From Escherichia phage fKMPT1, in sequence record PP620640: a DNA stretch of 64,000 nt; one strand, 5' to 3'. How positions within the stretch are numbered: position 1 is the first letter of the stretch; every line of letters begins with the position of its first letter. Both the position numbers and the translations under genes were made by a program. Shown here one piece after another: positions 23,122 to 41,514 of this stretch. Under the pieces are notes generated by a model, which saw only the letters and a program-made list of their open reading frames with translations, had not been told where the DNA came from and made no database searches.

Positions 23122-25266
23122 ATGAACAAAGTACAGATTATTAAAAAGAATGGCTCACTTGAAGAACCTGATATCAAAAAAGTTTTAGCAGCAGTAACTA
23201 AGTCAGCTAATAGGGTTGGGTATAAAGAACTCCCACCAGATGTTACCCAAGCTCTTGAGTCAGCATTCATGAGGATTCTGGTGAAGTCCACTAAGCAGAA
23301 TAATTTGCTCATCTCGGTAAATGACATTCACAGTATTGTTGAGGGTGCTTTGGCAGAAGTCAATCACGAGATTTACGAGTCTTACTCAACATATAGAAAT
23401 TACCGTAAAGAGGTTGCTCAAAATTGGGATGAGCTTTACCAAAAGACTAGAGACACACTCTTCTTAGGTGACCGTGAAAATGCTAACTTTGACAGCAGTT
23501 TAATCTCTACAAAAGGCTCAATTATTCGTGGTTATCTGACTAAAGAAATCTTTAAACAGTACCATTTAACACCAGAAGAACTCGAAGCCATTGAACAAGG
23601 GTTTATCTACATCCATGACTTAAGAGACCTAATTTTTGGTGGTATTAACTGTTGCTTGTTTGACATTGGTAAAGTACTGAAAGGTGGCTTTGAAATGTCT
23701 GGCATCGAATACTGTGAACCGAAGTCTGTACTGTCAGCCTTACAAGTCATCGGTGATGTAGTTCTTTCAGCAACTGCACAGCAATTTGGTGGCTTTACTT
23801 TAGCAGAGATTGATAAGGTACTTGTACCGTATGCTAAGAAGTCTCTACGCTATCATGCTGAGAAAGCAGCATCTTACGGTATTCCTAAAGAACATTACCA
23901 TAACTATGTCATGGAGCAGCTACAGATTGAATTAACTCAAGGCTTCCAGTCACTAGAGATGAAGCTAAATACTGTACCTTGTAGCCGTGGTGATTTCGCA
24001 TTCACAACTTTAACATTTGGGTTGCTCGACTCAGATATGTCTAATGAAGACAACAGACTGCAATACATGATTGCAAGTACTCTCCTAGATGTTCGTATGA
24101 ATGGGCAAGGTAAGAGCAAAAAACCTGTTGTATTCCCTAAACTGGTTTATATCTACGACCAGAAGAGACATGATGAAAATATCTGTCAAGGTCACCTGTA
24201 CAGTAAAGCTATCGAGTGTTGCTCTAAAGCAATGTATCCAGATTTCTTAAGTGTATCTGGTCACGGTGCTGTAGCAGAGGCTTTTGAGCGTTCTGGTAAG
24301 GTAATTTCACCGATGGGTTGCAGAGCTTTCTTGTCTCCATATCTTAACGATGATGGGGAAGAGTTCTACGTTGGTCGTGCTAACATTGGTGCTGTGTCTT
24401 TGAACTTGCCAATGATTTACCAGTATTCTAAAGAGAATGGTTTAGATTTCTGGAAAGAGCTTGATAAGTACCTAGAGATGATTCGCAGCTTCCACAAGAA
24501 ACGCTACGAAATGATTGCTAATATGCCAGCAAGTTCTAACCCTCTTGCATTCACACAAGGTGGTCTGTACAAAGGTACTAAGAAATCTACTGACAAGGTT
24601 GGCTGGGATATCGTGAAGTCCTTCACAGCTTCTTTTGGGGTTACTGCACTTGATGAGTTATCTGTTCTTGCTGAAGGTAAACGACTTCATGAAGTTGGAA
24701 GCTATAGTTTCGCATACGATGTTCTGGCATACATCAACATGAAAACTGAAGAGTTTAAAAATGAAGATGGCTTCTTATATGCTGTCTATGGTACTCCAGC
24801 AGAATCACTTTGTGGAACTCAGCTAAAACAGTTCAGAGATATGTTTGGCGTTATTAAAGGCGTTTCTGACAAGGAATACTTCACAAACAGTTTTCATATG
24901 AATGTTGCAGCAGACATCTCACCATTTGAGAAGCAGGACTTAGAAGAGCCATTCTTCCATATCTGTAGAGGCGGTAGAATCCAGTATGTAAGGGTAGCTA
25001 ACCCAGAAAACTTAACAGCACTTAAAAGTTGTATTACAAGAGGGATGTTGAAGGGTTTTTATCAGGGACTTAACTTTGACTTAGCAATCTGTGAACATTG
25101 TGGTAGCAGACCAAAGGCTGATGTTGAAGAATGTGAGGTTTGCCATTCACATGATATCTCTGTGATTAACAGGGTGTGCGGGTACTTGGGGTGGACTAAG
25201 ATTAAAGGTGAATCCCGAATGAATGATGCAAAAATTGCTGAGATTCGTGATAGAGTATCTATGTAA
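23122..25266 (+). CDS. nrdD: anaerobic ribonucleotide reductase (class III)
   Basis: 714 aa; C-terminal Zn site CEHCGS...CEVCHS and glycyl-radical motif RVCGYLG. Confidence 0.9.
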   Translation: MNKVQIIKKNGSLEEPDIKKVLAAVTKSANRVGYKELPPDVTQALESAFMRILVKSTKQNNLLISVNDIHSIVEGALAEVNHEIYESYSTYRNYRKEVAQNWDELYQKTRDTLFLGDRENANFDSSLISTKGSIIRGYLTKEIFKQYHLTPEELEAIEQGFIYIHDLRDLIFGGINCCLFDIGKVLKGGFEMSGIEYCEPKSVLSALQVIGDVVLSATAQQFGGFTLAEIDKVLVPYAKKSLRYHAEKAASYGIPKEHYHNYVMEQLQIELTQGFQSLEMKLNTVPCSRGDFAFTTLTFGLLDSDMSNEDNRLQYMIASTLLDVRMNGQGKSKKPVVFPKLVYIYDQKRHDENICQGHLYSKAIECCSKAMYPDFLSVSGHGAVAEAFERSGKVISPMGCRAFLSPYLNDDGEEFYVGRANIGAVSLNLPMIYQYSKENGLDFWKELDKYLEMIRSFHKKRYEMIANMPASSNPLAFTQGGLYKGTKKSTDKVGWDIVKSFTASFGVTALDELSVLAEGKRLHEVGSYSFAYDVLAYINMKTEEFKNEDGFLYAVYGTPAESLCGTQLKQFRDMFGVIKGVSDKEYFTNSFHMNVAADISPFEKQDLEEPFFHICRGGRIQYVRVANPENLTALKSCITRGMLKGFYQGLNFDLAICEHCGSRPKADVEECEVCHSHDISVINRVCGYLGWTKIKGESRMNDAKIAEIRDRVSM

Positions 25267-27945: not shown

Positions 27946-28479
27946 ATGTATCTGGCAAACCTTAAGCGCTCTGCTGCAATGTCTGTCCTTCGTCTTGACT
28001 TTGATGAGCGTCAAGAATTTATAGACTCCCACAAGTATGACCCTTCAAATTCTAATCACATGGTTCTTTGGAATCGTGGAAGCTTCCGTGATAAATCCCT
28101 CTTCAGATACTACCCACATTACACCATTGATAACCTGTATGAGTACTGCGTTGTCAAAAACACTATTACAGTACTTAATAAACTATGCAAATACTCTGAC
28201 AAGAGAGCCTTCACATTAGGTCACCACACACCTGTTACAAAAGGTGGCGAGCATCACTGTACAAACTGGTTTATCCAAACTAAAGCTGATAATCAGAAGC
28301 AAGGGGATAACCTACTAAGTACTCCTAAGATGACCTATGAAGAGCAAGAGAAATATATCAAAAATAATATGCCAGATGTGCTTGACAACAACTATACAGA
28401 TTTGGCAATATCTCTCCTGTTGAAGTTCGAGACAGTTTATAGGGCAACTTACAATGGCAGTAACAAACGTAACTTTTGA
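27946..28479 (+). CDS. HNH endonuclease
   Basis: GHHTPVTKGGEHHCTNWFIQTKADNQKQGDN HNH motif. Confidence 0.7.
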   Translation: MYLANLKRSAAMSVLRLDFDERQEFIDSHKYDPSNSNHMVLWNRGSFRDKSLFRYYPHYTIDNLYEYCVVKNTITVLNKLCKYSDKRAFTLGHHTPVTKGGEHHCTNWFIQTKADNQKQGDNLLSTPKMTYEEQEKYIKNNMPDVLDNNYTDLAISLLLKFETVYRATYNGSNKRNF

Positions 28480-28494
28480 TTGAGAGAGAAAACT

Positions 28495-28950
28495 ATGATT
28501 TTTTGCAGCTTCCAAAAAAGAATTATTGAGATTCTATACAATAAGTTTGGGACAGATAACACATTTGACTCAAATGAAGCTATTGAAGCCCTACAAGAAG
28601 GAAGTGATTACATCAAAAAACAGCCAATAGCAAACATCAGGTACTACTTGACTCAGATGAGAAAGTGGGGTGTGCTCATCGTGGTAGGACAGATTAAGCA
28701 ACAAGGGAGGATGCTCATCAACCAATTAAATAGGGGTTTTATTGAGAAGCACATTCAGCTAGAATATTTACTTAAAGAGCCACGAAACCAACGTGAAGAA
28801 CAGCAAAAAGACTTAAGTGATGGTGTAGGTGTGTCTCCAGACATAAAATTCTTTATTGGTGAGTTGATGTTTGATACACTCCAAGACGCTGTCGAACACT
28901 GCAAAAAGTATATTATCAAAGTAAAACGTGCAAAAATTATTTGGGAGTAA
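28495..28950 (+). CDS. paralog family member A1 (unknown function)
   Basis: MIFCSFQKRIIEILY...EAVEHCKKYIIKVKRAKIIWE; tandem paralog set. Confidence 0.6.
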   Translation: MIFCSFQKRIIEILYNKFGTDNTFDSNEAIEALQEGSDYIKKQPIANIRYYLTQMRKWGVLIVVGQIKQQGRMLINQLNRGFIEKHIQLEYLLKEPRNQREEQQKDLSDGVGVSPDIKFFIGELMFDTLQDAVEHCKKYIIKVKRAKIIWE

Positions 28951-28954
28951 TAAC

Positions 28955-29350
28955 ATGTTTGAGCTTCTGAAGGTTCTGTATATAACTTTTGGCTATGATA
29001 AAACATTTTCTGGCTCACAGCTAACTAAGGTTTTTAATAAATATCTACCACATGCTTCAATCAGGGATAAAGCTAATTGGTCTCACAGATTACGTAAAAG
29101 TGGGTATATTAGCGTTGTTGGAGCGACAGGCTTTAATAATGAGTATCTTATGAGAATCAATGAAAGCAAAGCTAAAAAGGTGCTTTTAAATTGTAATGAC
29201 CATCAACAAAAGTATGAAGAGGCTAGTGTAGGTGAAGTAGGGTACTTCATAGGTGACATACACTTTACCAGTATGGAGGCAGCAGTTGAGCATTGTAAGA
29301 AAACGGTTATCCAAACAAAAAGAAAGCGTATTGTTTGGGAAGAAGTTTAA
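28955..29350 (+). CDS. paralog family member B1 (unknown function)
   Basis: MFELLKVLYITFGYD...AVEHCKKTVIQTKRKRIVWE. Confidence 0.6.
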   Translation: MFELLKVLYITFGYDKTFSGSQLTKVFNKYLPHASIRDKANWSHRLRKSGYISVVGATGFNNEYLMRINESKAKKVLLNCNDHQQKYEEASVGEVGYFIGDIHFTSMEAAVEHCKKTVIQTKRKRIVWEEV

Positions 29351-29371
29351 ACATTTGATTAGGAATACACT

Positions 29372-29836
29372 ATGATTTTTTGCAATTTACAGAAGCACGT
29401 AATAGAGATTTTATACAAAACCTTCGGGACAGAAAACACTTTTGACTCTAATGAAGCAATTGACGCATTAAGAGAGAATAGTCTTTTTATACGAGGCCAG
29501 TCAATCAGTAATACCCGTGGGTATCTAACAATGTTAAGACAGTCTGGTGTACTGCTGACTGTAGGGCAGGTAAAAAGCAAAGGTAGGCTAAGTATTAATC
29601 AATTAAATCGAGCCTTTATGGAGAAGCACATACAACTGTCAAGGATGCTAGATAATACGCGTGAAGAGTTGGGGAGTTCACAAAAAGCAAGTTCATCTGA
29701 TGTTAAAGATGTGGATGTACAACCTGACGTAAGATACTTTATCGCAGATGTTATGTTTAAAACACTTGATGAAGCTGTTGAGCACTGCAAAAAGCATCTT
29801 ATTAAAGTTAAACATGCAAAAGTTATTTGGGAGTGA
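29372..29836 (+). CDS. paralog family member A2 (unknown function)
   Basis: MIFCNLQKHVIEILY...EAVEHCKKHLIKVKHAKVIWE. Confidence 0.6.
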   Translation: MIFCNLQKHVIEILYKTFGTENTFDSNEAIDALRENSLFIRGQSISNTRGYLTMLRQSGVLLTVGQVKSKGRLSINQLNRAFMEKHIQLSRMLDNTREELGSSQKASSSDVKDVDVQPDVRYFIADVMFKTLDEAVEHCKKHLIKVKHAKVIWE

Positions 29837-29840
29837 TGTT

Positions 29841-30221
29841 ATGATTGAACTGTTAAAAGTCCTATATAATAAGTTTGGTTATGATGAAACTTTTACTTGT
29901 TCACAGATACGTAGTATCCATGATAAGGAATTTCCAAATGTATCCAAGACAAACAAGTCAACTCGGTTCAATCGTCTTCGCCAGAGGGGTTACATTAAAA
30001 TAGTTGGATACAAGAATAACTCTTTTGAGTATGTAATGCAGATTAACAGAGAAGTATCAAGTAAAATACTTGAAGAGCCAACAGCCGAAGAACAAAAGAT
30101 ACAAGATGGTGAAGTTCGCTTCTTTGTGGAGAAGGAAAGTTTTGGGTCAATAGACGAAGCTATCGAATATTGCAAAAAGAACATTATCCAGATAAAGCGT
30201 AGAAAGGTTATTTGGGAATAA
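29841..30221 (+). CDS. paralog family member B2 (unknown function)
   Basis: MIELLKVLYNKFGYD...EAIEYCKKNIIQIKRRKVIWE. Confidence 0.6.
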   Translation: MIELLKVLYNKFGYDETFTCSQIRSIHDKEFPNVSKTNKSTRFNRLRQRGYIKIVGYKNNSFEYVMQINREVSSKILEEPTAEEQKIQDGEVRFFVEKESFGSIDEAIEYCKKNIIQIKRRKVIWE

Positions 30222-30240: not shown

Positions 30241-31122
30241 ATGAAAACATCTATCCGCGTTACAGTTCATTCACCAACTAAAGGAACTTATGAAGAAGAG
30301 TTTAACATCATCCAATTCCCTTCTGGTGAGATTGGTGGACACTTTTCACCAGAGTTTGTTGACTTCACTACTTATGCAGCATCATCTATCAACAATGTGA
30401 TTATGATTGTAAAAGGTTATGATAAAGATACATTGTTTGCTGTGGCACTTGCTAAAGAGGCGGTGGACAACTTAGTACCTCATAAGTTTGCTATGAAGAC
30501 CATTATCTTTTACTATTTGCCAAATGCACGTTATGACCGTCACATGTTTAAAGGTGATGCAGCAGCTTTGAAAGTGTTTGCACAACAGGTTAATGCAATG
30601 GGTTTTGATGCAGTCTGTGCAGTTGACCCTCACAGCTATGTACCAGATAACCTGTTTAACTGCTTCCAAAGTATCCCTCAAAATGAAGTTGCAGTTCACT
30701 ATGCAAATGACCCTCTGGTTGATTACTTAGTAGCCCCAGATGCAGGTGCTTCTAAGAAGATTGCAGAGACTGCTAAAGAGGTGGATAAACCATATATCAC
30801 AATGTCTAAGGTGCGTAACCTTAAGACTGGTGAAATTACTGGTATGCGAATCCTTGATGATGTTGATTTGACAGATAAAACCGTCATGATTCTGGATGAT
30901 ATTTGTGATGGAGGACGAACCTTCATAGAAGCAGCTAAACATCTTCGTGAAGCAGGTGCAAAACGTGTGGAACTCTATGTAACTCATGGTATTTTCTCTA
31001 AAGGGGTTGAAAACTTGCTTGACAATGGTATTGACCATATCTACACTACAAACTCTTTAGGGGAAGCTAAAGACCGTGGCTTAACACATTATGCTCAAGT
31101 TACTGTAGCAAACCTTGATTAA
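30241..31122 (+). CDS. ribose-phosphate pyrophosphokinase (PRPP synthetase) family enzyme; candidate ADPR-pyrophosphate synthetase
   Basis: 293 aa; PRPP/phosphoribosyl-binding loop VMILDDICDGGRTF. Confidence 0.75.
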   Translation: MKTSIRVTVHSPTKGTYEEEFNIIQFPSGEIGGHFSPEFVDFTTYAASSINNVIMIVKGYDKDTLFAVALAKEAVDNLVPHKFAMKTIIFYYLPNARYDRHMFKGDAAALKVFAQQVNAMGFDAVCAVDPHSYVPDNLFNCFQSIPQNEVAVHYANDPLVDYLVAPDAGASKKIAETAKEVDKPYITMSKVRNLKTGEITGMRILDDVDLTDKTVMILDDICDGGRTFIEAAKHLREAGAKRVELYVTHGIFSKGVENLLDNGIDHIYTTNSLGEAKDRGLTHYAQVTVANLD

Positions 31123-31167
31123 AACTTTATAGGGGCTTACAAGCCCCATTTTGAGAGAGATTAAAAG

Positions 31168-32949
31168 ATGACTAAATCACTTTATGCAGTACCAGCAGGT
31201 TTAAACGCAGACGCTTACAAATCTGGTCACATCTACCAGTATCCTAGTGCAATAGAGTACTTGATGTTCAACCTGACACCACGTAGTGATAAATGGTTTA
31301 ACAGCCCCTTAGCAATTGACGGTGTAGTGGCTTTTGGTATTCAACGTTTTGTTAAAGATTACCTGATAGACCACTGGAACGCCACCTTCTTCGAACGTGA
31401 CAAAAAAGAAGCAATTGACGAAATCTTAGAAGTCATGAACGGTGTTCTGGGTAAAGATGCTATTGGTCGAGAACATTGGGAAGCACTCCACGACTTAGGT
31501 TATCTACCAGTTGAAGTATACGCTGTAGAAGAAGGCACAGTTGTCCCTATGCGTGTACCAATGATTGTCTTCCAGAACACTGTTTCAGGTTTCCATTGGG
31601 TAGCGGGGTATCTGGAAGATGCTTTCTCTGCTGAGATTTGGAAGGCTTGTACCATTGCAACTATTGCATTGCACTACAAACGTATCTGTAAGAAGTGGTC
31701 TGACCTTACTTGTGACAATGACTTGCATTTACCTTATCAGTGCCATGACTTTGCTATGCGTGGTATGTCTGGCTTTACTGATGACGCATTTAATGCTGTA
31801 GGCCACTTAACCAGCTTTAAAGGGACTGATAGCTTCCCTGCTGTATACACGGCTAAACGCATCTATGGACAGCCCTACCCAATCTCTGATATTGGTAGTT
31901 CTGTACCAGCCACTGAACACTCTGTAATGTGTGCAAACATTGCTTGGGAAGGTGGTAATGAGTTGATTGAAGAAGAAAGACGCTTTAAAGGTGAGTTACA
32001 AACCTTCCGTCGTTTCTTAACAGAAACTTACCCAACTGGTATTGCAAGTGTTGTTTCAGACACTTATAATTTCTGGAAAACTGTATCAGAAATCTTACCA
32101 GCACTTCGCAAAGAGATTATGGAACGTGACGGAAAACTGGTAATTCGTCCTGACTCTGGCGACCCTGTACATATTGTCACAGGTTATAAAGCAATCCACT
32201 TAGAGTGCGCTAAAAAAGCTTATTACGAACACCTAAGCAAGCTGGAAGCCAGCGACACAAAGTTGAATGCTGTTCTGAACATGAATCTTGAAGACATTCA
32301 CTATATTATGGCTGGGTGGTTACGTACAGAAGGCTATGAAATGGTGGTTGACAGAGAAGACTTTGAAGTAGCTGATACAGTGCTTCTGAAAGATGCCTAC
32401 ATCAACGGCTCTGCAAACGTTGTAACACGTCCTGTAGCAGAGATTGATGGAGCTATTAAGACCCTGTATAACATCTTTGGAGGGACTATCAACGCTAAAG
32501 GTTTTAAAGTACTGGATGAGCACATTGGACTTATTTATGGTGACTCTATCACGTTGGAACGTGCAAACGAAATCCTTAAGCGTTTGTATGAAATGGGTTT
32601 TGCAAGCTCTAACGTAGTGTTTGGTGTAGGTTCTTACACTTACCAGTACATGACTCGTGACACCTTTGCATTTGCTGTTAAAGCAACTCTGGCAAGCATT
32701 GGTGGCAAAGAGATTATGCTTGCAAAAGACCCTAAAACAGATAGTGGTGTTAAGAAGTCTGCTTTTGGTGGTGTAGCACCTATGTGGGATGGTGATAAGC
32801 TGAAAGCTGTAGATGGCTATGGGTTCCAGAGCTTTGCAGATGTGCTTGAACATCCAGCTTGTGCTTTACGTTTAGTCTTTAGTGACTCTGAGCAGTTTGG
32901 TTACACAAATCTTGGTGATATTCGAAATAATATTGACAAGCAGCTTTAA
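31168..32949 (+). CDS. nicotinamide phosphoribosyltransferase (NAMPT) family enzyme; candidate nicotinamide ADPR transferase
   Basis: 593 aa with NAMPT-like core; directly downstream of PRPS-like gene; terminator follows. Confidence 0.75.
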   Translation: MTKSLYAVPAGLNADAYKSGHIYQYPSAIEYLMFNLTPRSDKWFNSPLAIDGVVAFGIQRFVKDYLIDHWNATFFERDKKEAIDEILEVMNGVLGKDAIGREHWEALHDLGYLPVEVYAVEEGTVVPMRVPMIVFQNTVSGFHWVAGYLEDAFSAEIWKACTIATIALHYKRICKKWSDLTCDNDLHLPYQCHDFAMRGMSGFTDDAFNAVGHLTSFKGTDSFPAVYTAKRIYGQPYPISDIGSSVPATEHSVMCANIAWEGGNELIEEERRFKGELQTFRRFLTETYPTGIASVVSDTYNFWKTVSEILPALRKEIMERDGKLVIRPDSGDPVHIVTGYKAIHLECAKKAYYEHLSKLEASDTKLNAVLNMNLEDIHYIMAGWLRTEGYEMVVDREDFEVADTVLLKDAYINGSANVVTRPVAEIDGAIKTLYNIFGGTINAKGFKVLDEHIGLIYGDSITLERANEILKRLYEMGFASSNVVFGVGSYTYQYMTRDTFAFAVKATLASIGGKEIMLAKDPKTDSGVKKSAFGGVAPMWDGDKLKAVDGYGFQSFADVLEHPACALRLVFSDSEQFGYTNLGDIRNNIDKQL

Positions 32950-32962
32950 AAGTATATGATAA

Positions 32963-32986
32963 GAGGCTCCTACGGGAGCCTTTTTA
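32963..32986 (+). terminator. rho-independent terminator
   Basis: ggctcc-tac-gggagcc hairpin + TTTTT. Confidence 0.6.
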
Positions 32987-33002
32987 ATTTCTGGAGAAGA
33001 TT

Positions 33003-33338
33003 ATGAAAATCAAAGAAATGAATATCAATATTGTCTTAGAAGAACGTTGGGAGAACATCAAGAAGCCTGAAAATGGTCATAAGTTCCTCAACAAAATCTT
33101 AGTAGCAGCTAAAGAAGAACTGACTGGCAAGGTTGCAGCAGCAATTACAATAAAGGTGTGTGTAAAAGGTCTTCCAGACAATCACCAATTTGCACTTGAC
33201 GAGTTTAAAGAAAGCTTCTACAATCCAAACAAACAGATGCTTGAAAGTAATTTTGCAGTATCTACAAGTATCGTCCATGACAGAAGCTTTATCCTTTACA
33301 AGAATATGAGAGGTGAGTCATGCAAGCATATTGGATAG
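33003..33338 (+). CDS. hypothetical protein
   Basis: 111-aa ORF. Confidence 0.5.
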   Translation: MKIKEMNINIVLEERWENIKKPENGHKFLNKILVAAKEELTGKVAAAITIKVCVKGLPDNHQFALDEFKESFYNPNKQMLESNFAVSTSIVHDRSFILYKNMRGESCKHIG

Positions 33339-33524: not shown

Positions 33525-35891
33525 ATGCGCATGGTAAACGACCACGCAGAAGTGATTAAGAGTTCAACTTCTTTAGAGACGTCGCAAGCACAGATTACAA
33601 TGACACCTGAAATGTTCAGCCTTTTGAGTTCTGGTGTATATACCTTTAAAGAAAGGGCAGTGATTCGTGAACTGTCATGTAACGCAGTAGATGCTCAGAA
33701 AGAAGCTGGAAAAGAGAATATCCCGTTCCATGTGCATTTACCTACTCGTTTTGAGCCTTACTTTGAAGTTCGTGATTTTGGAACTGGATTAACTCATGAT
33801 AAAGTTATGAGTTTGTACCTAAACTATGGGGCTTCTACGAAGAATGACTCTAATGACTACATTGGTGCAATGGGTATCGGCTCAAAATCACCATTTGCAA
33901 TTGCTCAGTCATTCACAGTGTCTAGCTATGTTGACGGTGTTGTTAATAAGTACTCTGTTTATCTTGAGAATGGTATCCCTCAAGTAACTAAACTGACCAC
34001 TAACCCAACAAAAGAACCTAATGGTTTAGCTGTACGTGTGGCAGTTGCTGACCACCGTATTTCAAAGTTCTTTGAAGAGGCTGGTAATGTATACTCATAC
34101 TTTGCTGTAAAACCAGAAAGTAACATCGAGTATGACGATGTACTAGCAGATATGAATGTCATTGCCCGTGAAGAAGGTGTCTATGATGCCATGATTCATA
34201 AGCAAAGCTGGCGTTCTAGTGGTAACAGGACAGAGTTTAATGTGGTGATGGGTAATATCGCCTATCCAGTTAACATGGAAGCATTACTTGGAGATGATTT
34301 CTTCAAAGTCTTGCCAGAATTTTTCCGTAGGAGCGTAGACCTTGTAAACATCTACATGCCTATTGGTTCAGTCGCTATTGCAGCTTCTCGTGAAGCATTG
34401 CAGATGAATGATACGACAAAAAATGTTATCATTGAGGCTACTAAAAAGATAACTGAAGCAATTACAAAGGATGTTATCAAGAAAGTTAATAGCCAACCTA
34501 CACTCATGGATGCTGCACAGGCTTATGCTGAGTTACGTTTGAACTCACGAGAGATGTTCAATGCTGTGTGTCCAAAGCTAGAGTGGGGTGGTGTTAAGCT
34601 TGATTCTCTGGAAGAAGAATTACTAAACATTCGTCGTGGAATTATCTACGCAGAAGACGGCTCAGTCATTTACGAACGTGACGGCAAAGGCAATATTAAG
34701 GTTGATAGGAACGGGAACAATATCCCTAAAGTAGATTATCTTTATGACCCAGTTGCTTACGTCAAGTTCAACTCTTTAGAGAGTAAGATTCGTGCAACAT
34801 CGCTTTCCTACACTCAAGAGGCAAGTATGTTCAATATCTTTGGCGCAATGCGTAAAAGCCAAATTGAACAGTTTTTGTTTGTTATAAATGACCGTCGCAA
34901 TAAAAATGGTACTGAGAAGACTGTAGGACGCAATCAAATTTTGCGTGGTGCATGTCGAGACTATGCCAATGAGTCAAGTCTGTTTCACAGATACAATGGT
35001 ATTGTCTTTGTATTCTCTACAGAGAAAGAGCTAGACGACTTAATCAATTTGCACAAACTTGATAAAAGCTTGTTAAAGATTGTGAAGATGTCTGATAAGG
35101 AACACCATTATCAGCGTAAAGAAGCTGTAAGAGGTGTTGTAAAACTTTGGAAAGCTGTTCCAGCAGAAGGTGTAGCTTCCTATAAAGAGGTTTCAGAGGA
35201 CTTTGATACAATTGAAGAACCTCAGCTTTACATTAAGGCAGTCGGCGACACAGTTGACGGTGAATGTTTTTGCTCATCTCCAGAAGATGTAGCTAAGTCA
35301 GTTGCAAATGTCATTGGGAAGACAGTCTATGTTTTCCGAAAAGCAAATTGGAAAAAGATACCAGAAGACTGGATTGAAGTAGATGAGAAGCTCTTGAACG
35401 ACAGCTTAACTGATGTTCACTGGATTAACCATAATAGGTATATGACACGCATCTATATGAATGGTGTCCTTGACCTCACAAGCAGTTGGATTATTGCCAG
35501 AAACTTTACGTTCAATAACAGGAAGATTTCTCGTGGCTATTGTTATTCACGGGATACAAACAAAACTATCTTCCTAGAAGGCAATGAGGATGCTGTTGAG
35601 GCAATGTTTGGTAAAATCCAATACGTTGCTGCACCGTTTGCATACACTTACACTATTAGTAGACTGCAAACTTTGAAAGAATGCCTTGATAACGATACAA
35701 AGCTGTACAAGAAAATCAAGAAAGCTGGTGACCGTATGGTCATTAAGGTGACAAACTACCTTTCAAAAAGGAAACAAGAAAACTTCTTGCTTTCTCATTT
35801 AGATTGGGATAAAGTGTCACCCATCGAAGTGAGTAAGTTCTTAGGCTTTGATGTGAAGTGTGTTCCAGAAGGGACTACAATTTACGATTAA
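33525..35891 (+). CDS. rIIA: rIIA-like protein (GHKL ATPase-like N-terminal domain)
   Basis: 788 aa; N-terminal ELSCNAVDA...GAMGIGSKSPF resembles HATPase-like motifs of phage rIIA. Confidence 0.55.
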   Translation: MRMVNDHAEVIKSSTSLETSQAQITMTPEMFSLLSSGVYTFKERAVIRELSCNAVDAQKEAGKENIPFHVHLPTRFEPYFEVRDFGTGLTHDKVMSLYLNYGASTKNDSNDYIGAMGIGSKSPFAIAQSFTVSSYVDGVVNKYSVYLENGIPQVTKLTTNPTKEPNGLAVRVAVADHRISKFFEEAGNVYSYFAVKPESNIEYDDVLADMNVIAREEGVYDAMIHKQSWRSSGNRTEFNVVMGNIAYPVNMEALLGDDFFKVLPEFFRRSVDLVNIYMPIGSVAIAASREALQMNDTTKNVIIEATKKITEAITKDVIKKVNSQPTLMDAAQAYAELRLNSREMFNAVCPKLEWGGVKLDSLEEELLNIRRGIIYAEDGSVIYERDGKGNIKVDRNGNNIPKVDYLYDPVAYVKFNSLESKIRATSLSYTQEASMFNIFGAMRKSQIEQFLFVINDRRNKNGTEKTVGRNQILRGACRDYANESSLFHRYNGIVFVFSTEKELDDLINLHKLDKSLLKIVKMSDKEHHYQRKEAVRGVVKLWKAVPAEGVASYKEVSEDFDTIEEPQLYIKAVGDTVDGECFCSSPEDVAKSVANVIGKTVYVFRKANWKKIPEDWIEVDEKLLNDSLTDVHWINHNRYMTRIYMNGVLDLTSSWIIARNFTFNNRKISRGYCYSRDTNKTIFLEGNEDAVEAMFGKIQYVAAPFAYTYTISRLQTLKECLDNDTKLYKKIKKAGDRMVIKVTNYLSKRKQENFLLSHLDWDKVSPIEVSKFLGFDVKCVPEGTTIYD

Positions 35892-35970: not shown

Positions 35971-37080
35971 ATGACTACTAAAACTAAAGCACAGATTGAC
36001 GCAGAAATTTACGAACTGGTTAAAGAAGGTAAGCTGACTAAAACAGCTATTGCACAGAAGTTCAATACTTCAACCCGTTCAGTTGGTCGTGCTGTAGAGC
36101 GTCATGAAGCAACCTTAAAAGGTAAGAAGAAGACGACTTCTAATCCAGCTAAGAAGACCCTAAAGCAAGTTGCTAAGTCAGTTAAAAAGAAAGCTGGAAA
36201 ACCAGTTGAAAAGGTTGTTAAAAAGGCTGTACAAAAAGCTCCGGTAAATAAACTACACGAAGCTATGCAGAAAGATGACAAGATTGAGTACATGATTACT
36301 GGTGACTCTGTAATTATGACTTACGGTTCAGAATCTGAAATTGTTGAGTCTACTCATCCGAACTATCAAGAGATTGTAGTTCATGTTGTGAAAGGTGAGT
36401 TCAAGAAAGCCTTTGAACTGATGAACATTCGTAAGTCTATCGAAAACTTCACTCAGGGTGCTATCACAATCAAAGGTGACAAGTTATTCTACGGTGCTGT
36501 TGAGATGCGTTCTACTCTGGTTGACCGTATTCTTCACATGATGAAGACTGGTGATAAAGGTTTTGAACGACTTGTAATGTTCTTCGAAAAACTGATGGAA
36601 AACCCATCTAAAGACTCTGTAGAACAACTTTGGGGATTTGTATCTCACCTTGATGTTGAGATTGATGAAGAAGGCTTCATCATTGGTTGGAAGAAAGTCT
36701 CTACTCGTGAAGGTAAGCTGGTTGACTCCCACACCTACAAAGTACCTAATGATTTGGGTAACATTGTAGAAATGCCACGTTGGATGGTTGATAACAACCG
36801 TAACGTAACTTGTTCTCAAGGTCTTCATGTTGGTGCTTGGGATTATGTTCGTTACTTCTCAGGTGATACCATCCTGAAGGTTCGTGTCCATCCACGAGAT
36901 GTTGTATCTGTTCCAACTGATTACAACGATATGAAGATGCGTTCATCCCGTTATGAAGTTGCAGCAATCGTTGATAATCAGCGTAAAGTACTGAAAGCGT
37001 GGGATGGTAAGACTGAGGCTTTGCATGTCATCGTTGGCACTGCTGGTGAACTCATCTCCCAACGTAAACGTGAAATCTAA
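35971..37080 (+). CDS. hypothetical protein (rIIB-like by position only)
   Basis: 369 aa, lysine-rich N-terminal region, immediately downstream of rIIA-like gene. Confidence 0.5.
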   Translation: MTTKTKAQIDAEIYELVKEGKLTKTAIAQKFNTSTRSVGRAVERHEATLKGKKKTTSNPAKKTLKQVAKSVKKKAGKPVEKVVKKAVQKAPVNKLHEAMQKDDKIEYMITGDSVIMTYGSESEIVESTHPNYQEIVVHVVKGEFKKAFELMNIRKSIENFTQGAITIKGDKLFYGAVEMRSTLVDRILHMMKTGDKGFERLVMFFEKLMENPSKDSVEQLWGFVSHLDVEIDEEGFIIGWKKVSTREGKLVDSHTYKVPNDLGNIVEMPRWMVDNNRNVTCSQGLHVGAWDYVRYFSGDTILKVRVHPRDVVSVPTDYNDMKMRSSRYEVAAIVDNQRKVLKAWDGKTEALHVIVGTAGELISQRKREI

Positions 37081-40728: not shown

Positions 40729-41514
40729 ATGGGTATTGTAAAAATCATCAATGGTGATATCTTTGCAGCATTTGATAAAGGTAAGTTTGACATCATCGGT
40801 CACGGTTGCAACTGTATGAACTTAATGGGTGCAGGTATCGCTGACAAGATTTCTAAACTTTACCCAAAAGCATATGAGACCGATACAGAAGTTTATCTGT
40901 ATGCAGGTGGTATAGGTCACAAACCCTGTGAAAATTTACTAGGCAATTTCTCTGTAGCACGTTTAGAACAAGGCCGTATAGCTAACCTTTACACTCAGCT
41001 TAAGACTGGTAAAGATGCCCGATACAGTGCTTTAGAGTCATCTTTGAAACAGCTTAACAGATACTGTGAAGTTAACCAGTTGAAGAAAGTTGGTTTACCT
41101 ATGATTGGTGCAGGTATCGGTGGACTGGACCCTCAAGCCGTTACCGTTATCATTAATCAGGTGATGAAGAGTGTAGATGTGTATCTGTATGTCTACGAAG
41201 GGGAGATGTACCACGAGTTACGCTCAGGTTGGAAGAACTACTGTGAACCAGAATACTTTGCAGGTGTAGTAACGTTCACTGATGATGCAGTTACCCTCTT
41301 CAGACGAAGAAAAGGTAAGATACATCAAAGTAACCCTCCGGTTGAAAAGATGTCTCTAAGTAACGCTCTAGTTACCCACCTGTCGAAGAGCAATCACAGA
41401 ATTGCCGTGACATTTGGTAGCGATGCAGATACATATATCTATGCAAGAACTGATGAGGATGTTGAGGAAATTTTCTCTTCACCAGAAGTTACCTTCTTAG
41501 ACGCAAAGAACTAA
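40729..41514 (+). CDS. macro-domain (ADP-ribose binding/hydrolase) protein
   Basis: N-terminal IINGDIF...DIIGHGCNCMNLMGAGIADKI resembles macro-domain Gly-rich ADP-ribose pocket. Confidence 0.6.
   Translation: MGIVKIINGDIFAAFDKGKFDIIGHGCNCMNLMGAGIADKISKLYPKAYETDTEVYLYAGGIGHKPCENLLGNFSVARLEQGRIANLYTQLKTGKDARYSALESSLKQLNRYCEVNQLKKVGLPMIGAGIGGLDPQAVTVIINQVMKSVDVYLYVYEGEMYHELRSGWKNYCEPEYFAGVVTFTDDAVTLFRRRKGKIHQSNPPVEKMSLSNALVTHLSKSNHRIAVTFGSDADTYIYARTDEDVEEIFSSPEVTFLDAKN

What the first reader, a model, noticed from the sequence alone, without database searches (positions are those of the whole stretch)
30241..32949. Adjacent PRPP-synthetase-like and NAMPT-like genes: candidate NAD+ reconstitution (NARP1-type) anti-defence module
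A 293-aa PRPS-family protein (PRPP-binding loop VMILDDICDGGRTF) is followed 45 nt later by a 593-aa NAMPT-family protein, closed by a terminator. Phage PRPS-like plus NAMPT-like pairs have been described as rebuilding NAD+ from ADP-ribose and nicotinamide to counter NAD+-depleting defences. No NMN adenylyltransferase motif is evident nearby, which favours the two-enzyme NARP1 scheme over classical NAMPT/NMNAT salvage. The NAMPT-like protein is about 100 aa longer than canonical NAMPT.
Basis: partly seen in the sequence, partly recalled or inferred. Interest (0 to 1): 0.8.

Follow-up and report, generated by a model that had tools for sequence, protein, structure and literature searches.

The report
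Known phage NAD+ rebuilding operon (NARP1)

Summary
The window is Salmonella phage fBSPA4, a Felix O1-like phage (100% DNA identity).

- **Orthology.** ORFs 30241-31122 (293 aa) and 31168-32949 (593 aa) align full-length and ungapped with Bas63 gp79 (80% identity) and gp80 (96%). They have the same lengths and the same 45-nt spacer. NARP1 (Adps + Namat) was discovered in that Bas63 operon and confirmed there by a second laboratory.
- **Namat features.** The 593-aa protein carries the published Namat-specific adenine clamp: GSYTYQYMTRD plus K42-W43. All catalytic residues are present. Its closest solved structure is the SPbetaL1 Namat.
- **Adps features.** The 293-aa protein fails every canonical Prs equivalog cut-off and keeps the catalytic lysine.
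- **No NMNAT.** None is found in the window or in the rest of the genome.
- **Extra length.** The roughly 100 extra residues are shared with Bas63. Most of them form a confidently folded 88-aa insert restricted to Felix O1-like and related phages. It has no sequence or fold relatives and is under weaker purifying selection than the core.

One side lead is new as far as I could find. A Macro-domain protein 7.8 kb downstream is homologous to the operon-encoded ADPR-1''-phosphate phosphatase (Adpp) of extended NARP1. It may act as an unlinked Adpp.

The parts
30241..31122 (+). adps: ADP-ribose pyrophosphate synthetase (Prs-family), 293 aa. Catalytic Lys K190 is at nt 30808-30810. The ribose-phosphate loop VMILDDICDGGRTF is at nt 30883-30924.
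   Evidence: The ORF is listed. It is 80% identical, 293/293 ungapped, to Bas63 gp79, 31% identical to the biochemically characterised SPbetaL1 Adps and 24% to E. coli Prs. It matches phrog_619 at 2e-98. All NCBIfam Prs equivalog models score far below their cut-offs. K190 aligns with the catalytic Lys of an archaeal Prs and with SPbetaL1 K162.
31123..31167 (+). 45-nt spacer. It holds a 6-bp G+C hairpin (31132-31147, GGGGCT-TACA-AGCCCC) followed by ATTTTG, then the namat ribosome-binding site (GAGAGAG). It is the unoccupied insertion site of a free-standing HNH endonuclease gene seen in relatives.
   Evidence: Sequence. The fold is -12.6 kcal/mol, z = -3.6. The stem is conserved in Bas63 while the loop differs. 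In phage Mushroom the hairpin is replaced by a 164-aa HNH/AP2 endonuclease gene.
31168..32949 (+). namat: nicotinamide ADP-ribose transferase (Nampt-family), 593 aa.
   Evidence: 96% identical, 593/593 ungapped, to Bas63 gp80. It matches phrog_448 at 4e-200. The best PDB sequence hit is SPbetaL1 Namat 9w5w/9w5x at 1e-125. The AF2 model has pLDDT 94 and pTM 0.92. Its best structural match is 9w5x Namat, TM 0.95 normalised to the target.
31285..31305 (+). Selectivity-clamp loop (SCL) of Namat, aa 40-46 SDKWFNS. K42 is followed by the stacking residue W43.
   Evidence: It aligns with SPbetaL1 T38-S39-R40 and is identical to Bas63. The paper states that when Lys occupies position 3, the next residue stacks on adenine, as in Bas63.
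32629..32661 (+). Selectivity-clamp helix (SCH) signature of Namat, aa 488-498 GSYTYQYMTRD.
   Evidence: It fits the published Namat consensus GSX-phi-X-phi-X-phi-TRD with aromatics at positions 3 and 7. SPbetaL1 Namat has GSFTYQYNTRD. The true Nampts HdNadV (GAQTYQRNTRD) and Xanthomonas Nampt (GGALLQKVDRD) lack the aromatics.
32185..32448 (+). Lineage-specific insert domain of Namat, aa 340-427. It accounts for most of the extra length.
32961..32984 (+). Intrinsic terminator closing the pair.
   Evidence: It lies in a block whose first 74 positions are invariant between the window, Bas63 and Mushroom.
40729..41514 (+). CANDIDATE accessory gene, unproven. It encodes a 261-aa protein with an N-terminal Macro domain and a roughly 100-aa extension of unknown nature. 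It is a possible unlinked ADPR-1''-phosphate phosphatase (Adpp).
   Evidence: Pfam Macro 32.1 bits against a cut-off of 22. phrog_335 'phosphatase' at 7e-113. 28% identity, E 5e-15, to Vibrio phage Javier gp172, which lies between Adps and Namat. 34% identity to the Pakpunavirus K8 'phosphatase' two genes after Namat. However, it is 38% identical to a T4-like Macro protein in a locus where no NARP1 gene is annotated.

Best explanation
The two genes are a functional NARP1 operon. When a host defence cleaves NAD+ into ADP-ribose and nicotinamide, the pathway rebuilds it in two steps.

1. The 293-aa Adps uses ATP to pyrophosphorylate the free ribose of ADP-ribose, giving ADPR-PP.
2. The 593-aa Namat exchanges that pyrophosphate for nicotinamide. 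Its adenine clamp makes it prefer ADPR-PP over PRPP. This regenerates NAD+ directly, without NMN or an NMN adenylyltransferase.

This lets the phage replicate in hosts carrying NAD+-depleting defences such as SIR2-HerA, type I Thoeris, DSR1/DSR2 or SEFIR.

**Shown here:** orthology to the Bas63 operon, presence of the catalytic and specificity motifs, fold, operon layout, and absence of NMNAT.

**Taken from the literature on orthologues and homologues:** the chemistry was measured in vitro with SPbetaL1 enzymes, and ADPR-PP was detected in vivo with Bas63. The anti-defence phenotype comes from Bas63 deletions.

**Inferred:** that the fBSPA4 proteins do the same in Salmonella.
For: **Source.** The window matches phage fBSPA4 at 100% DNA identity, and 259 phage records, mostly Felix O1-like, carry near-identical DNA.

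**Orthology.** The window proteins match Bas63 gp79 and gp80 at 80% and 96% identity, full-length and ungapped. Gene lengths and the 45-nt spacer are the same.

**Bas63 experiments.**
- Deleting genes 79-80 sensitises the phage to SIR2-HerA.
- ADPR-PP (m/z 720.010) appears only with the wild-type phage plus the defence system.
- The phenotype is independent of host pncC and nadR.
- An independent study found that single g79 or g80 deletions cost 1e4-1e6 in plating efficiency on Sir2-HerA, and complementation restored it.

**Namat.** The SCH and SCL signatures and the catalytic residues are present: H251, R198, D221, R327, D329, F195, Y17, D15. The AF2 model (pLDDT 94) is closest to the Namat crystal structures.

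**Adps.** It sits with phage phrog_619. It reaches only the broad TIGR01251 subfamily cut-off (123 against 113 bits). It falls far below every Prs equivalog cut-off, for example 104 against 296 bits.

**Selection and alternatives.** Both genes are under purifying selection, with dN/dS 0.03-0.24. There is no NMNAT anywhere in the genome.
Against: - No biochemistry or genetics exists for fBSPA4 itself.
- The in vitro chemistry was measured on SPbetaL1 proteins, which are only 31% (Adps) and about 38% (Namat) identical. The Bas63 Adps could not be purified.
- The N-terminal domain of the window's Adps is a different allele from Bas63's, with dN 0.21 and saturated dS of 1.47.
- No sequence signature that separates ADPR from ribose-5-phosphate specificity in Adps is published. 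I could not derive one, because the ribose-phosphate loop differs between the Bas63-type (DGGRT) and SPbetaL1 (SFGGT) enzymes.
Confidence: 0.93

Rival explanations
1. Classical salvage. The 293-aa protein is a true PRPP synthetase and the 593-aa protein a true Nampt. Together they make NMN, which host NadR or PncC/NadD/NadE convert to NAD+.
For: Pfam, NCBIfam and the GenBank annotation name the two proteins Prs and NadV/NAPRTase. Namat from SPbetaL1 can make NMN from PRPP in vitro when ADPR-PP is absent.
Against: - Bas63 still overcomes SIR2-HerA in a host lacking pncC and nadR.
- SPbetaL1 Adps gave no product in the Prs assay, and Namat made only NAD+ when both donors were offered.
- The window Namat has the adenine clamp that true Nampts lack.
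- The Prs equivalog cut-offs are not met.
Confidence: 0.04
2. NARP2-type or a general auxiliary metabolic module. The genes raise NAD+ constitutively for phage enzymes, whether or not a defence is present.
For: The pair lies in a nucleotide-metabolism block containing nrdAB, nrdDG, td and frd. Namat homologues in phages without Adps work with Nmnat as NARP2.
Against: - No Nmnat homologue exists in the window or the rest of the genome.
- In Bas63 the pathway intermediates appear only when the defence system is present, so the pathway is substrate-driven by ADPR.
- Pyrophosphokinases are listed among the contents of Bas63's nonessential genome segments, and nicotinamide-metabolism enzymes showed mixed essentiality across the four hosts tested.
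Confidence: 0.03

Closest known systems
NARP1 of Escherichia phage Bas63 (JohannRWettstein) genes 79-80, the operon in which the pathway was discovered
   Same: Same virus group (Felix O1-like), same gene order, same lengths (293 and 593 aa) and same 45-nt spacer with hairpin. The promoter-like element and terminator block is identical. The proteins are 80% and 96% identical without gaps. The clamp residues are identical, and both carry the 88-aa Namat insert.
   Different: - The Adps N-terminal domain (aa 1-180) is a divergent allele, with saturated dS of 1.47.
- The Namat insert differs at about 17 of 60 positions.
- Upstream, the window has four tandem phrog_29478 paralogues where Bas63 has gene 78.
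- Bas63 has an extra gene 81 downstream.
- The host is Salmonella rather than E. coli.
NARP1 of Bacillus phage SPbetaL1. Adps and Namat were characterised in vitro, and Namat crystal structures 9w5w and 9w5x exist.
   Same: Adps is followed by Namat. The catalytic Lys of Adps, the Namat catalytic core and the SCH signature are shared. The Namat fold matches at TM 0.95.
   Different: - Identity is only 31% (Adps) and about 38% (Namat).
- SPbetaL1 Namat is 491 aa. It lacks the 88-aa insert and the roughly 15-aa insert after the catalytic His.
- Its SCL uses Arg40 rather than Lys-Trp.
- In SPbetaL1 the two genes abut with no spacer.
NARP1-AP (Adps, Macro-domain phosphatase Adpp, Namat) of Vibrio phage Gary and relatives, and of Pakpunavirus
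   Same: The core Adps and Namat are shared. The genome also encodes a homologous Macro-domain protein, 28-34% identical, with all shared motif residues conserved.
   Different: Here the Macro gene is not in the operon. It lies 14 genes (7.8 kb) downstream and carries an extra C-terminal extension of about 100 aa. None of the ten flanking ORFs scanned (eight upstream, two downstream) has a Macro domain.
NARP2 (Nampt + Nmnat, Vibrio phage KVP40) and cellular Prs/NadV salvage
   Same: The same two protein superfamilies (Prs-like, and Nampt type II phosphoribosyltransferase) and the same catalytic residues.
   Different: There is no Nmnat. Namat carries the adenine clamp that HdNadV and Xanthomonas Nampt lack. 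The Prs-like protein fails the Prs equivalog thresholds and lacks the N- and C-terminal segments of E. coli Prs.

Membership tests
NARP1 (Adps + Namat) | A Prs-family protein belonging to the phage Adps clade rather than to cellular Prs | tested here: met
   80% identical to Bas63 gp79, one of the queries that defined the clade. phrog_619 at 2e-98. All NCBIfam Prs equivalog models fall far below their cut-offs. 31% identity to SPbetaL1 Adps against 24% to E. coli Prs. No formal tree was built.
NARP1 (Adps + Namat) | Adps catalytic lysine (SPbetaL1 K162, B. subtilis Prs K197) and the ATP/ribose-binding motifs | tested here: met
   K190 in MSKVRN aligns with SPbetaL1 HKQRN and with the Lys of archaeal Prs 4twb. 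R97, D99, R100, H131, D219, D220 and T227 are invariant across the aligned Adps and Prs sequences.
NARP1 (Adps + Namat) | A Namat homologue in the immediate vicinity of adps (within 10 genes) | tested here: met
   It is the next gene, 45 nt downstream on the same strand, and one terminator follows the pair.
NARP1 (Adps + Namat) | Nampt-like catalytic core of Namat (SPbetaL1 F189, R192, D215, His, R306, D308) | tested here: met
   F195, R198, D221, H251, R327 and D329 are invariant in 54 homologues and align with the SPbetaL1 residues.
NARP1 (Adps + Namat) | [quoted passage not shown] | tested here: met
   GSYTYQYMTRD at aa 488-498. In the 54-homologue alignment (A3), position 3 is F or Y in every sequence. 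Position 7 is F or Y in 47 of the 54 and M or H in the other 7. The true Nampts have Q/R or A/K at these positions.
NARP1 (Adps + Namat) | SCL loop supplying a stacking residue (Arg at position 3, or Lys/Tyr followed by the stacking residue) | tested here: met
   S40-D41-K42-W43, identical to Bas63.
NARP1 (Adps + Namat) | Enzymatic activities: ADPR + ATP to ADPR-PP, and ADPR-PP + nicotinamide to NAD+ | not testable with these tools
   Shown in vitro for the SPbetaL1 enzymes. ADPR-PP was detected in vivo for Bas63.
NARP1 (Adps + Namat) | Counter-defence phenotype against NAD+-depleting systems | not testable with these tools
   Shown for the Bas63 orthologues by two independent studies, but not for fBSPA4.
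NARP2 / classical Nampt-Nmnat salvage | An NMN adenylyltransferase (Nmnat, NadR or NadD-like) encoded in the same genome | tested here: not met
   phmmer with E. coli NadD and NadR against six-frame ORFs of the window gave a best E of 0.47, and against the remaining 23 kb a best E of 0.27. No HxGH or ISSTxxR motifs were found, and the positive control worked. Single-sequence seeds limit the sensitivity of this test.
NARP1-AP (NARP1 with associated phosphatase) | A Macro-domain gene within two genes of the NARP1 operon (the criterion used by the authors) | tested here: not met
   Ten flanking ORFs (eight upstream, two downstream), which cover the +/-2-gene criterion, have no Macro, RyR or NMNAT Pfam hit at E <= 0.1. 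The criterion is quoted.
NARP1-AP (NARP1 with associated phosphatase) | A homologue of the Adpp Macro-domain phosphatase anywhere in the genome | tested here: met
   Window 40729-41514 has a Pfam Macro hit of 32.1 bits. It matches Javier gp172 at E 5e-15 and 28% identity. Conserved residues are listed. ADPR-1''-P phosphatase activity has not been tested.
Canonical class I ribose-phosphate diphosphokinase (Prs) | Score above the NCBIfam equivalog cut-offs, and the full N- and C-terminal Prs architecture | tested here: not met
   The best equivalog scores 104.5 bits against a cut-off of 296. Only the broad TIGR01251 subfamily is passed, at 123 against 113 bits. The N-terminal 15 or so residues and the C-terminal helix of E. 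coli Prs are missing.

The most novel reading that the evidence does not exclude
Felix O1-like phages may run a dispersed three-enzyme version of NARP1. Under this reading, the unlinked 261-aa Macro-domain protein at 40729-41514 (Bas63 gp95 orthologue) would be an ADPR-1''-phosphate phosphatase. It would feed ADPR from RES-type (aRES) NAD+ phosphorolysis into Adps/Namat. The published survey looked only within two genes of the operon, so such phages would have been missed as NARP1-AP.

A second, weaker possibility concerns the folded 88-aa Namat insert, which has no fold relatives. It might add a lineage-specific property such as regulation, oligomerisation, or escape from a host inhibitor.
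Probability: 0.25. Interest if true: 0.45.

Novelty: already known. Interest (0 to 1): 0.15.

Why it matters
For the finding itself the value is mainly corrective. GenBank calls these genes 'ribose-phosphate pyrophosphokinase' and 'nadV'. They should be annotated as adps and namat, an anti-defence module. That is relevant when choosing Felix O1-like Salmonella or E. coli phages for therapy or diagnostics against hosts carrying SIR2, TIR or SEFIR-type NAD+-depleting defences.

The side observations give cheap, testable follow-ups in the already tractable Bas63 system:
- Does gp95 (the Macro protein) make this phage lineage resistant to aRES?
- What does the Namat insert, absent from the solved structure, contribute?
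- Does a homing endonuclease that targets the adps-namat spacer shape the mosaic evolution of this anti-defence locus?

Tried and rejected
- **Accessory genes next to the pair.** Pfam scans of ten flanking ORFs found no Macro, RyR (RyDEP) or NMNAT domain. There was only DUF7390 and sub-threshold noise. PHROGs gave only unknown-function families.
- **NMNAT anywhere in the genome.** Negative.
- **The Namat insert as a known mobile or borrowed domain.**
  - HMMER of the 97-aa segment against 1.84 billion representatives found one hit, a fragment of the same family.
  - Pfam gave nothing significant.
  - The AFDB Foldseek library was unavailable.
  - Other Namat lineages carry unrelated inserts at the same site, so it is an insertion hot spot rather than one acquired domain.
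- **Positive selection on the insert or on the Adps N-domain.** Rejected, because dN/dS is at most 0.24 everywhere. The Adps N-domain difference from Bas63 is allelic or mosaic, with saturated dS.
- **An Adps-specific motif in the ribose-phosphate loop.** Not found. The loop is DGGRT here, SFGGT in SPbetaL1 and DTGGT in E. coli Prs.
- **Bas63 accession.** My first guess was wrong (MZ501111 is Bas51). The correct record is MZ501086.
Full report
**What is there.** The window contains two same-strand ORFs exactly as described. The first is 30241..31122 (293 aa) and the second is 31168..32949 (593 aa), separated by 45 nt. A strong intrinsic terminator follows at 32961-32984.

Profile searches place the first protein in the ribose-phosphate pyrophosphokinase superfamily:
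- phrog_619 at 2e-98;
- Pfam Pribosyltran and Pribosyl_synth;
- TIGR01251 at 123 bits.

They place the second in the Nampt/NAPRTase superfamily: phrog_448 at 4e-200 and NF006629 at 465 bits.

**Where it comes from.** The 2.7-kb segment is 100% identical to Salmonella phage fBSPA4 (OR711204.1). It is 90-97% identical to some 200 Felix O1-like phages of Salmonella, E. coli, Shigella and Citrobacter. Window position 1 corresponds to record position 23181. GenBank annotates the genes as 'putative ribose-phosphate pyrophosphokinase' and 'nadV'.

**Comparison with the literature.** Osterman et al. discovered NARP1 in genes 79-80 of the BASEL phage Bas63 (JohannRWettstein), which is a Felixounavirus. 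Their evidence was as follows.
- Deleting the operon sensitised Bas63 to SIR2-HerA.
- The new metabolite ADPR-PP appeared only with the wild-type phage plus the defence.
- The phenotype persisted in a host lacking pncC and nadR.
- The chemistry was reconstituted in vitro with the homologous SPbetaL1 enzymes.

An independent knockout screen found 1e4-1e6 drops in plating efficiency for single g79 or g80 deletions on Sir2-HerA, and complementation rescued them.

I fetched Bas63 (MZ501086). Genes 79 and 80 have the same lengths (882 and 1782 nt) and the same 45-nt spacer as the window's genes. The window proteins align with them end to end without gaps, at 80% and 96% identity. The pair is therefore an orthologue of the type NARP1 operon.

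**Membership tests for Namat.** A 2026 structural study defined what separates Namat from Nampt: an adenine 'selectivity clamp'. It has two parts.
- A loop (SCL) that supplies a third stacking residue.

The window protein has GSYTYQYMTRD at aa 488-498, and S40-D41-K42-W43 in the loop, identical to Bas63. SPbetaL1 Namat has GSFTYQYNTRD. The genuine Nampts in the PDB have GAQTYQRNTRD (HdNadV) and GGALLQKVDRD (Xanthomonas). The catalytic residues F195, R198, D221, H251, R327 and D329 are invariant in 54 homologues. An AlphaFold2 model (pLDDT 94, pTM 0.92) is closest to the SPbetaL1 Namat crystal structures, at TM 0.95 normalised to the target. Bacterial NadV and human NAMPT come next.

**Membership tests for Adps.** The 293-aa protein passes only the broad TIGR01251 subfamily threshold. 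It is far below every Prs equivalog cut-off. It is 31% identical to the characterised SPbetaL1 Adps and 24% to E. coli Prs. It keeps the catalytic lysine (K190) and the ATP and ribose motifs. I could not find a sequence signature for ADPR versus ribose-5-phosphate specificity, so substrate choice rests on orthology.

**Excluding the alternatives.** NARP2 and classical salvage both need an NMN adenylyltransferase. phmmer with NadD and NadR against all six-frame ORFs of the window, and of the remaining 23 kb of the genome, gave only noise. The Prs control found the adps ORF at 5e-15. None of the ten flanking ORFs scanned has a Macro, RyR or NMNAT domain. By the authors' criterion the locus is therefore a plain two-gene NARP1, not NARP1-AP or a RyDEP-containing operon.

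**The extra 100 residues.** They are not a peculiarity of this phage, because Bas63 gp80 is also 593 aa. Relative to SPbetaL1 Namat there are two additions:
- about 15 extra residues after the catalytic ATEH motif;
- an 88-aa insert (aa 340-427) after RPDSGDPVHIVTG.

That position is a hot spot, and other lineages carry inserts of 0-100 aa that look unrelated. The insert seen here is found in relatives down to about 46% identity, including phages of Yersinia, Pectobacterium and Erwinia.

**Locus dynamics.**
- The spacer holds a conserved G+C hairpin.
- In Mushroom, and by match geometry in Felix O1, VpaE1 and others, a free-standing HNH/AP2 endonuclease gene occupies exactly this spacer. The window has the empty site.
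- The Adps N-terminal domain of the window and Mushroom is a different allele from Bas63's, with saturated dS of 1.47 against 0.33 in the C-terminal domain. This indicates recombinational mosaicism.
- Immediately upstream lie an orthologue of Bas63 gp77 (88% identity, reported to counter retron Ec67) and four tandem paralogues of an unknown family. The paralogue array occurs in only ten phage records.
- The neighbourhood therefore looks like a variable counter-defence region.

**An unexpected lead.** Window 40729-41514 is the orthologue of Bas63 gp95 and lies 7.8 kb (14 genes) downstream. It encodes a 261-aa protein with an N-terminal Macro domain above Pfam's threshold.

Evidence linking it to Adpp:
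- Its Macro domain aligns over its whole length with Vibrio phage Javier gp172, at 28% identity and E 5e-15. Javier gp172 sits between Adps and Namat, the layout described for phage Gary's Adpp, the ADPR-1''-phosphate phosphatase that lets NARP1 overcome aRES.
- It also aligns with the Pakpunavirus K8 'phosphatase' two genes after Namat, at 34% identity.
- The published survey scanned only two genes either side of NARP1. It would have missed an unlinked copy.

Evidence for caution:
- The same family is present in T4-like phages, in a locus where no NARP1 gene is annotated, at 38% identity.
- Its nearest PDB and NCBIfam relatives are TARG1/OARD1 and DarG-type macrodomains.
- The function is open, and I rate the dispersed NARP1-AP reading at about 0.25.

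**Verdict.** The pair is an orthologue of the founding example of a published pathway, so it is already known and of low interest as a discovery. Residual interest lies in the uncharacterised Namat insert and the candidate unlinked Adpp.

Noticed in passing
window 40729-41514 (+): A 261-aa protein (Bas63 gp95 orthologue, 97% identical) with an N-terminal Macro domain and a roughly 100-aa extension with no Pfam match. It is homologous to the Macro/Adpp-type gene inside the NARP1 operons of Vibrio phage Javier and Pakpunavirus K8. It is also homologous to T4-like Macro proteins and, weakly, to DarG and TARG1. It is a candidate unlinked ADPR-1''-P phosphatase.
   Followed up: partly
window 31123-31167; L010:2391-2882 (phage Mushroom): The adps-namat spacer is the insertion site of a free-standing HNH/AP2 homing endonuclease gene in Mushroom. 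By match geometry the same holds for Felix O1, VpaE1 and other relatives. The window and Bas63 have the empty site, which holds a conserved G+C hairpin followed by ATTTTG.
   Followed up: partly
window 30241-30780 (Adps aa 1-180): The N-terminal domain of Adps exists as two divergent alleles among otherwise close Felix O1-like phages. Window versus Bas63 gives dN 0.21 and dS 1.47, while the C-terminal domain gives dS 0.33. This is mosaic recombination, and both alleles are under purifying selection.
   Followed up: partly
window 28495-30221 (+): Four tandem paralogues of unknown function, all phrog_29478, arranged A-B-A'-B'. They are 131-154 aa long and share the C-terminal motif AVEHCKK..I..K..K(I/V)(I/V)WE. 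They sit between the gp77 orthologue and adps. The array is found in only 10 of the roughly 260 related phage records and is absent from Bas63 and Mushroom at that position.
   Followed up: partly
window 27946-28479 (+): A 177-aa protein that is 88% identical to Bas63 gp77. One study reported that gp77 counters retron Ec67 and described it as containing a GIY-YIG domain. Here PHROGs gives only an unknown-function family plus a weak HNH hit.
   Followed up: partly
window 32933-32960 (+): A near-consensus sigma-70-like promoter (TTGACA, 16 nt, TATGAT; 11 of 12 matches) overlaps the namat stop codon and abuts the terminator hairpin. In an 86-nt stretch aligned between the window, Bas63 and Mushroom, positions 5-78 (74 in a row) are invariant, although the flanking coding sequence varies.
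   Followed up: partly
window 33525-35891 and 35971-37080 (+): These are rIIA and rIIB homologues directly downstream. In Bas63 the corresponding genes 84 and 85 were reported to counter the qatABCD defence, so the whole stretch from about 27.9 to 37 kb may be a counter-defence neighbourhood.
   Followed up: no
window 32985-33003 versus L005:25509-25853: Bas63 has an extra 345-nt gene (bas63_0081) between the terminator and the 111-aa ORF. The window and Mushroom lack it.
   Followed up: no
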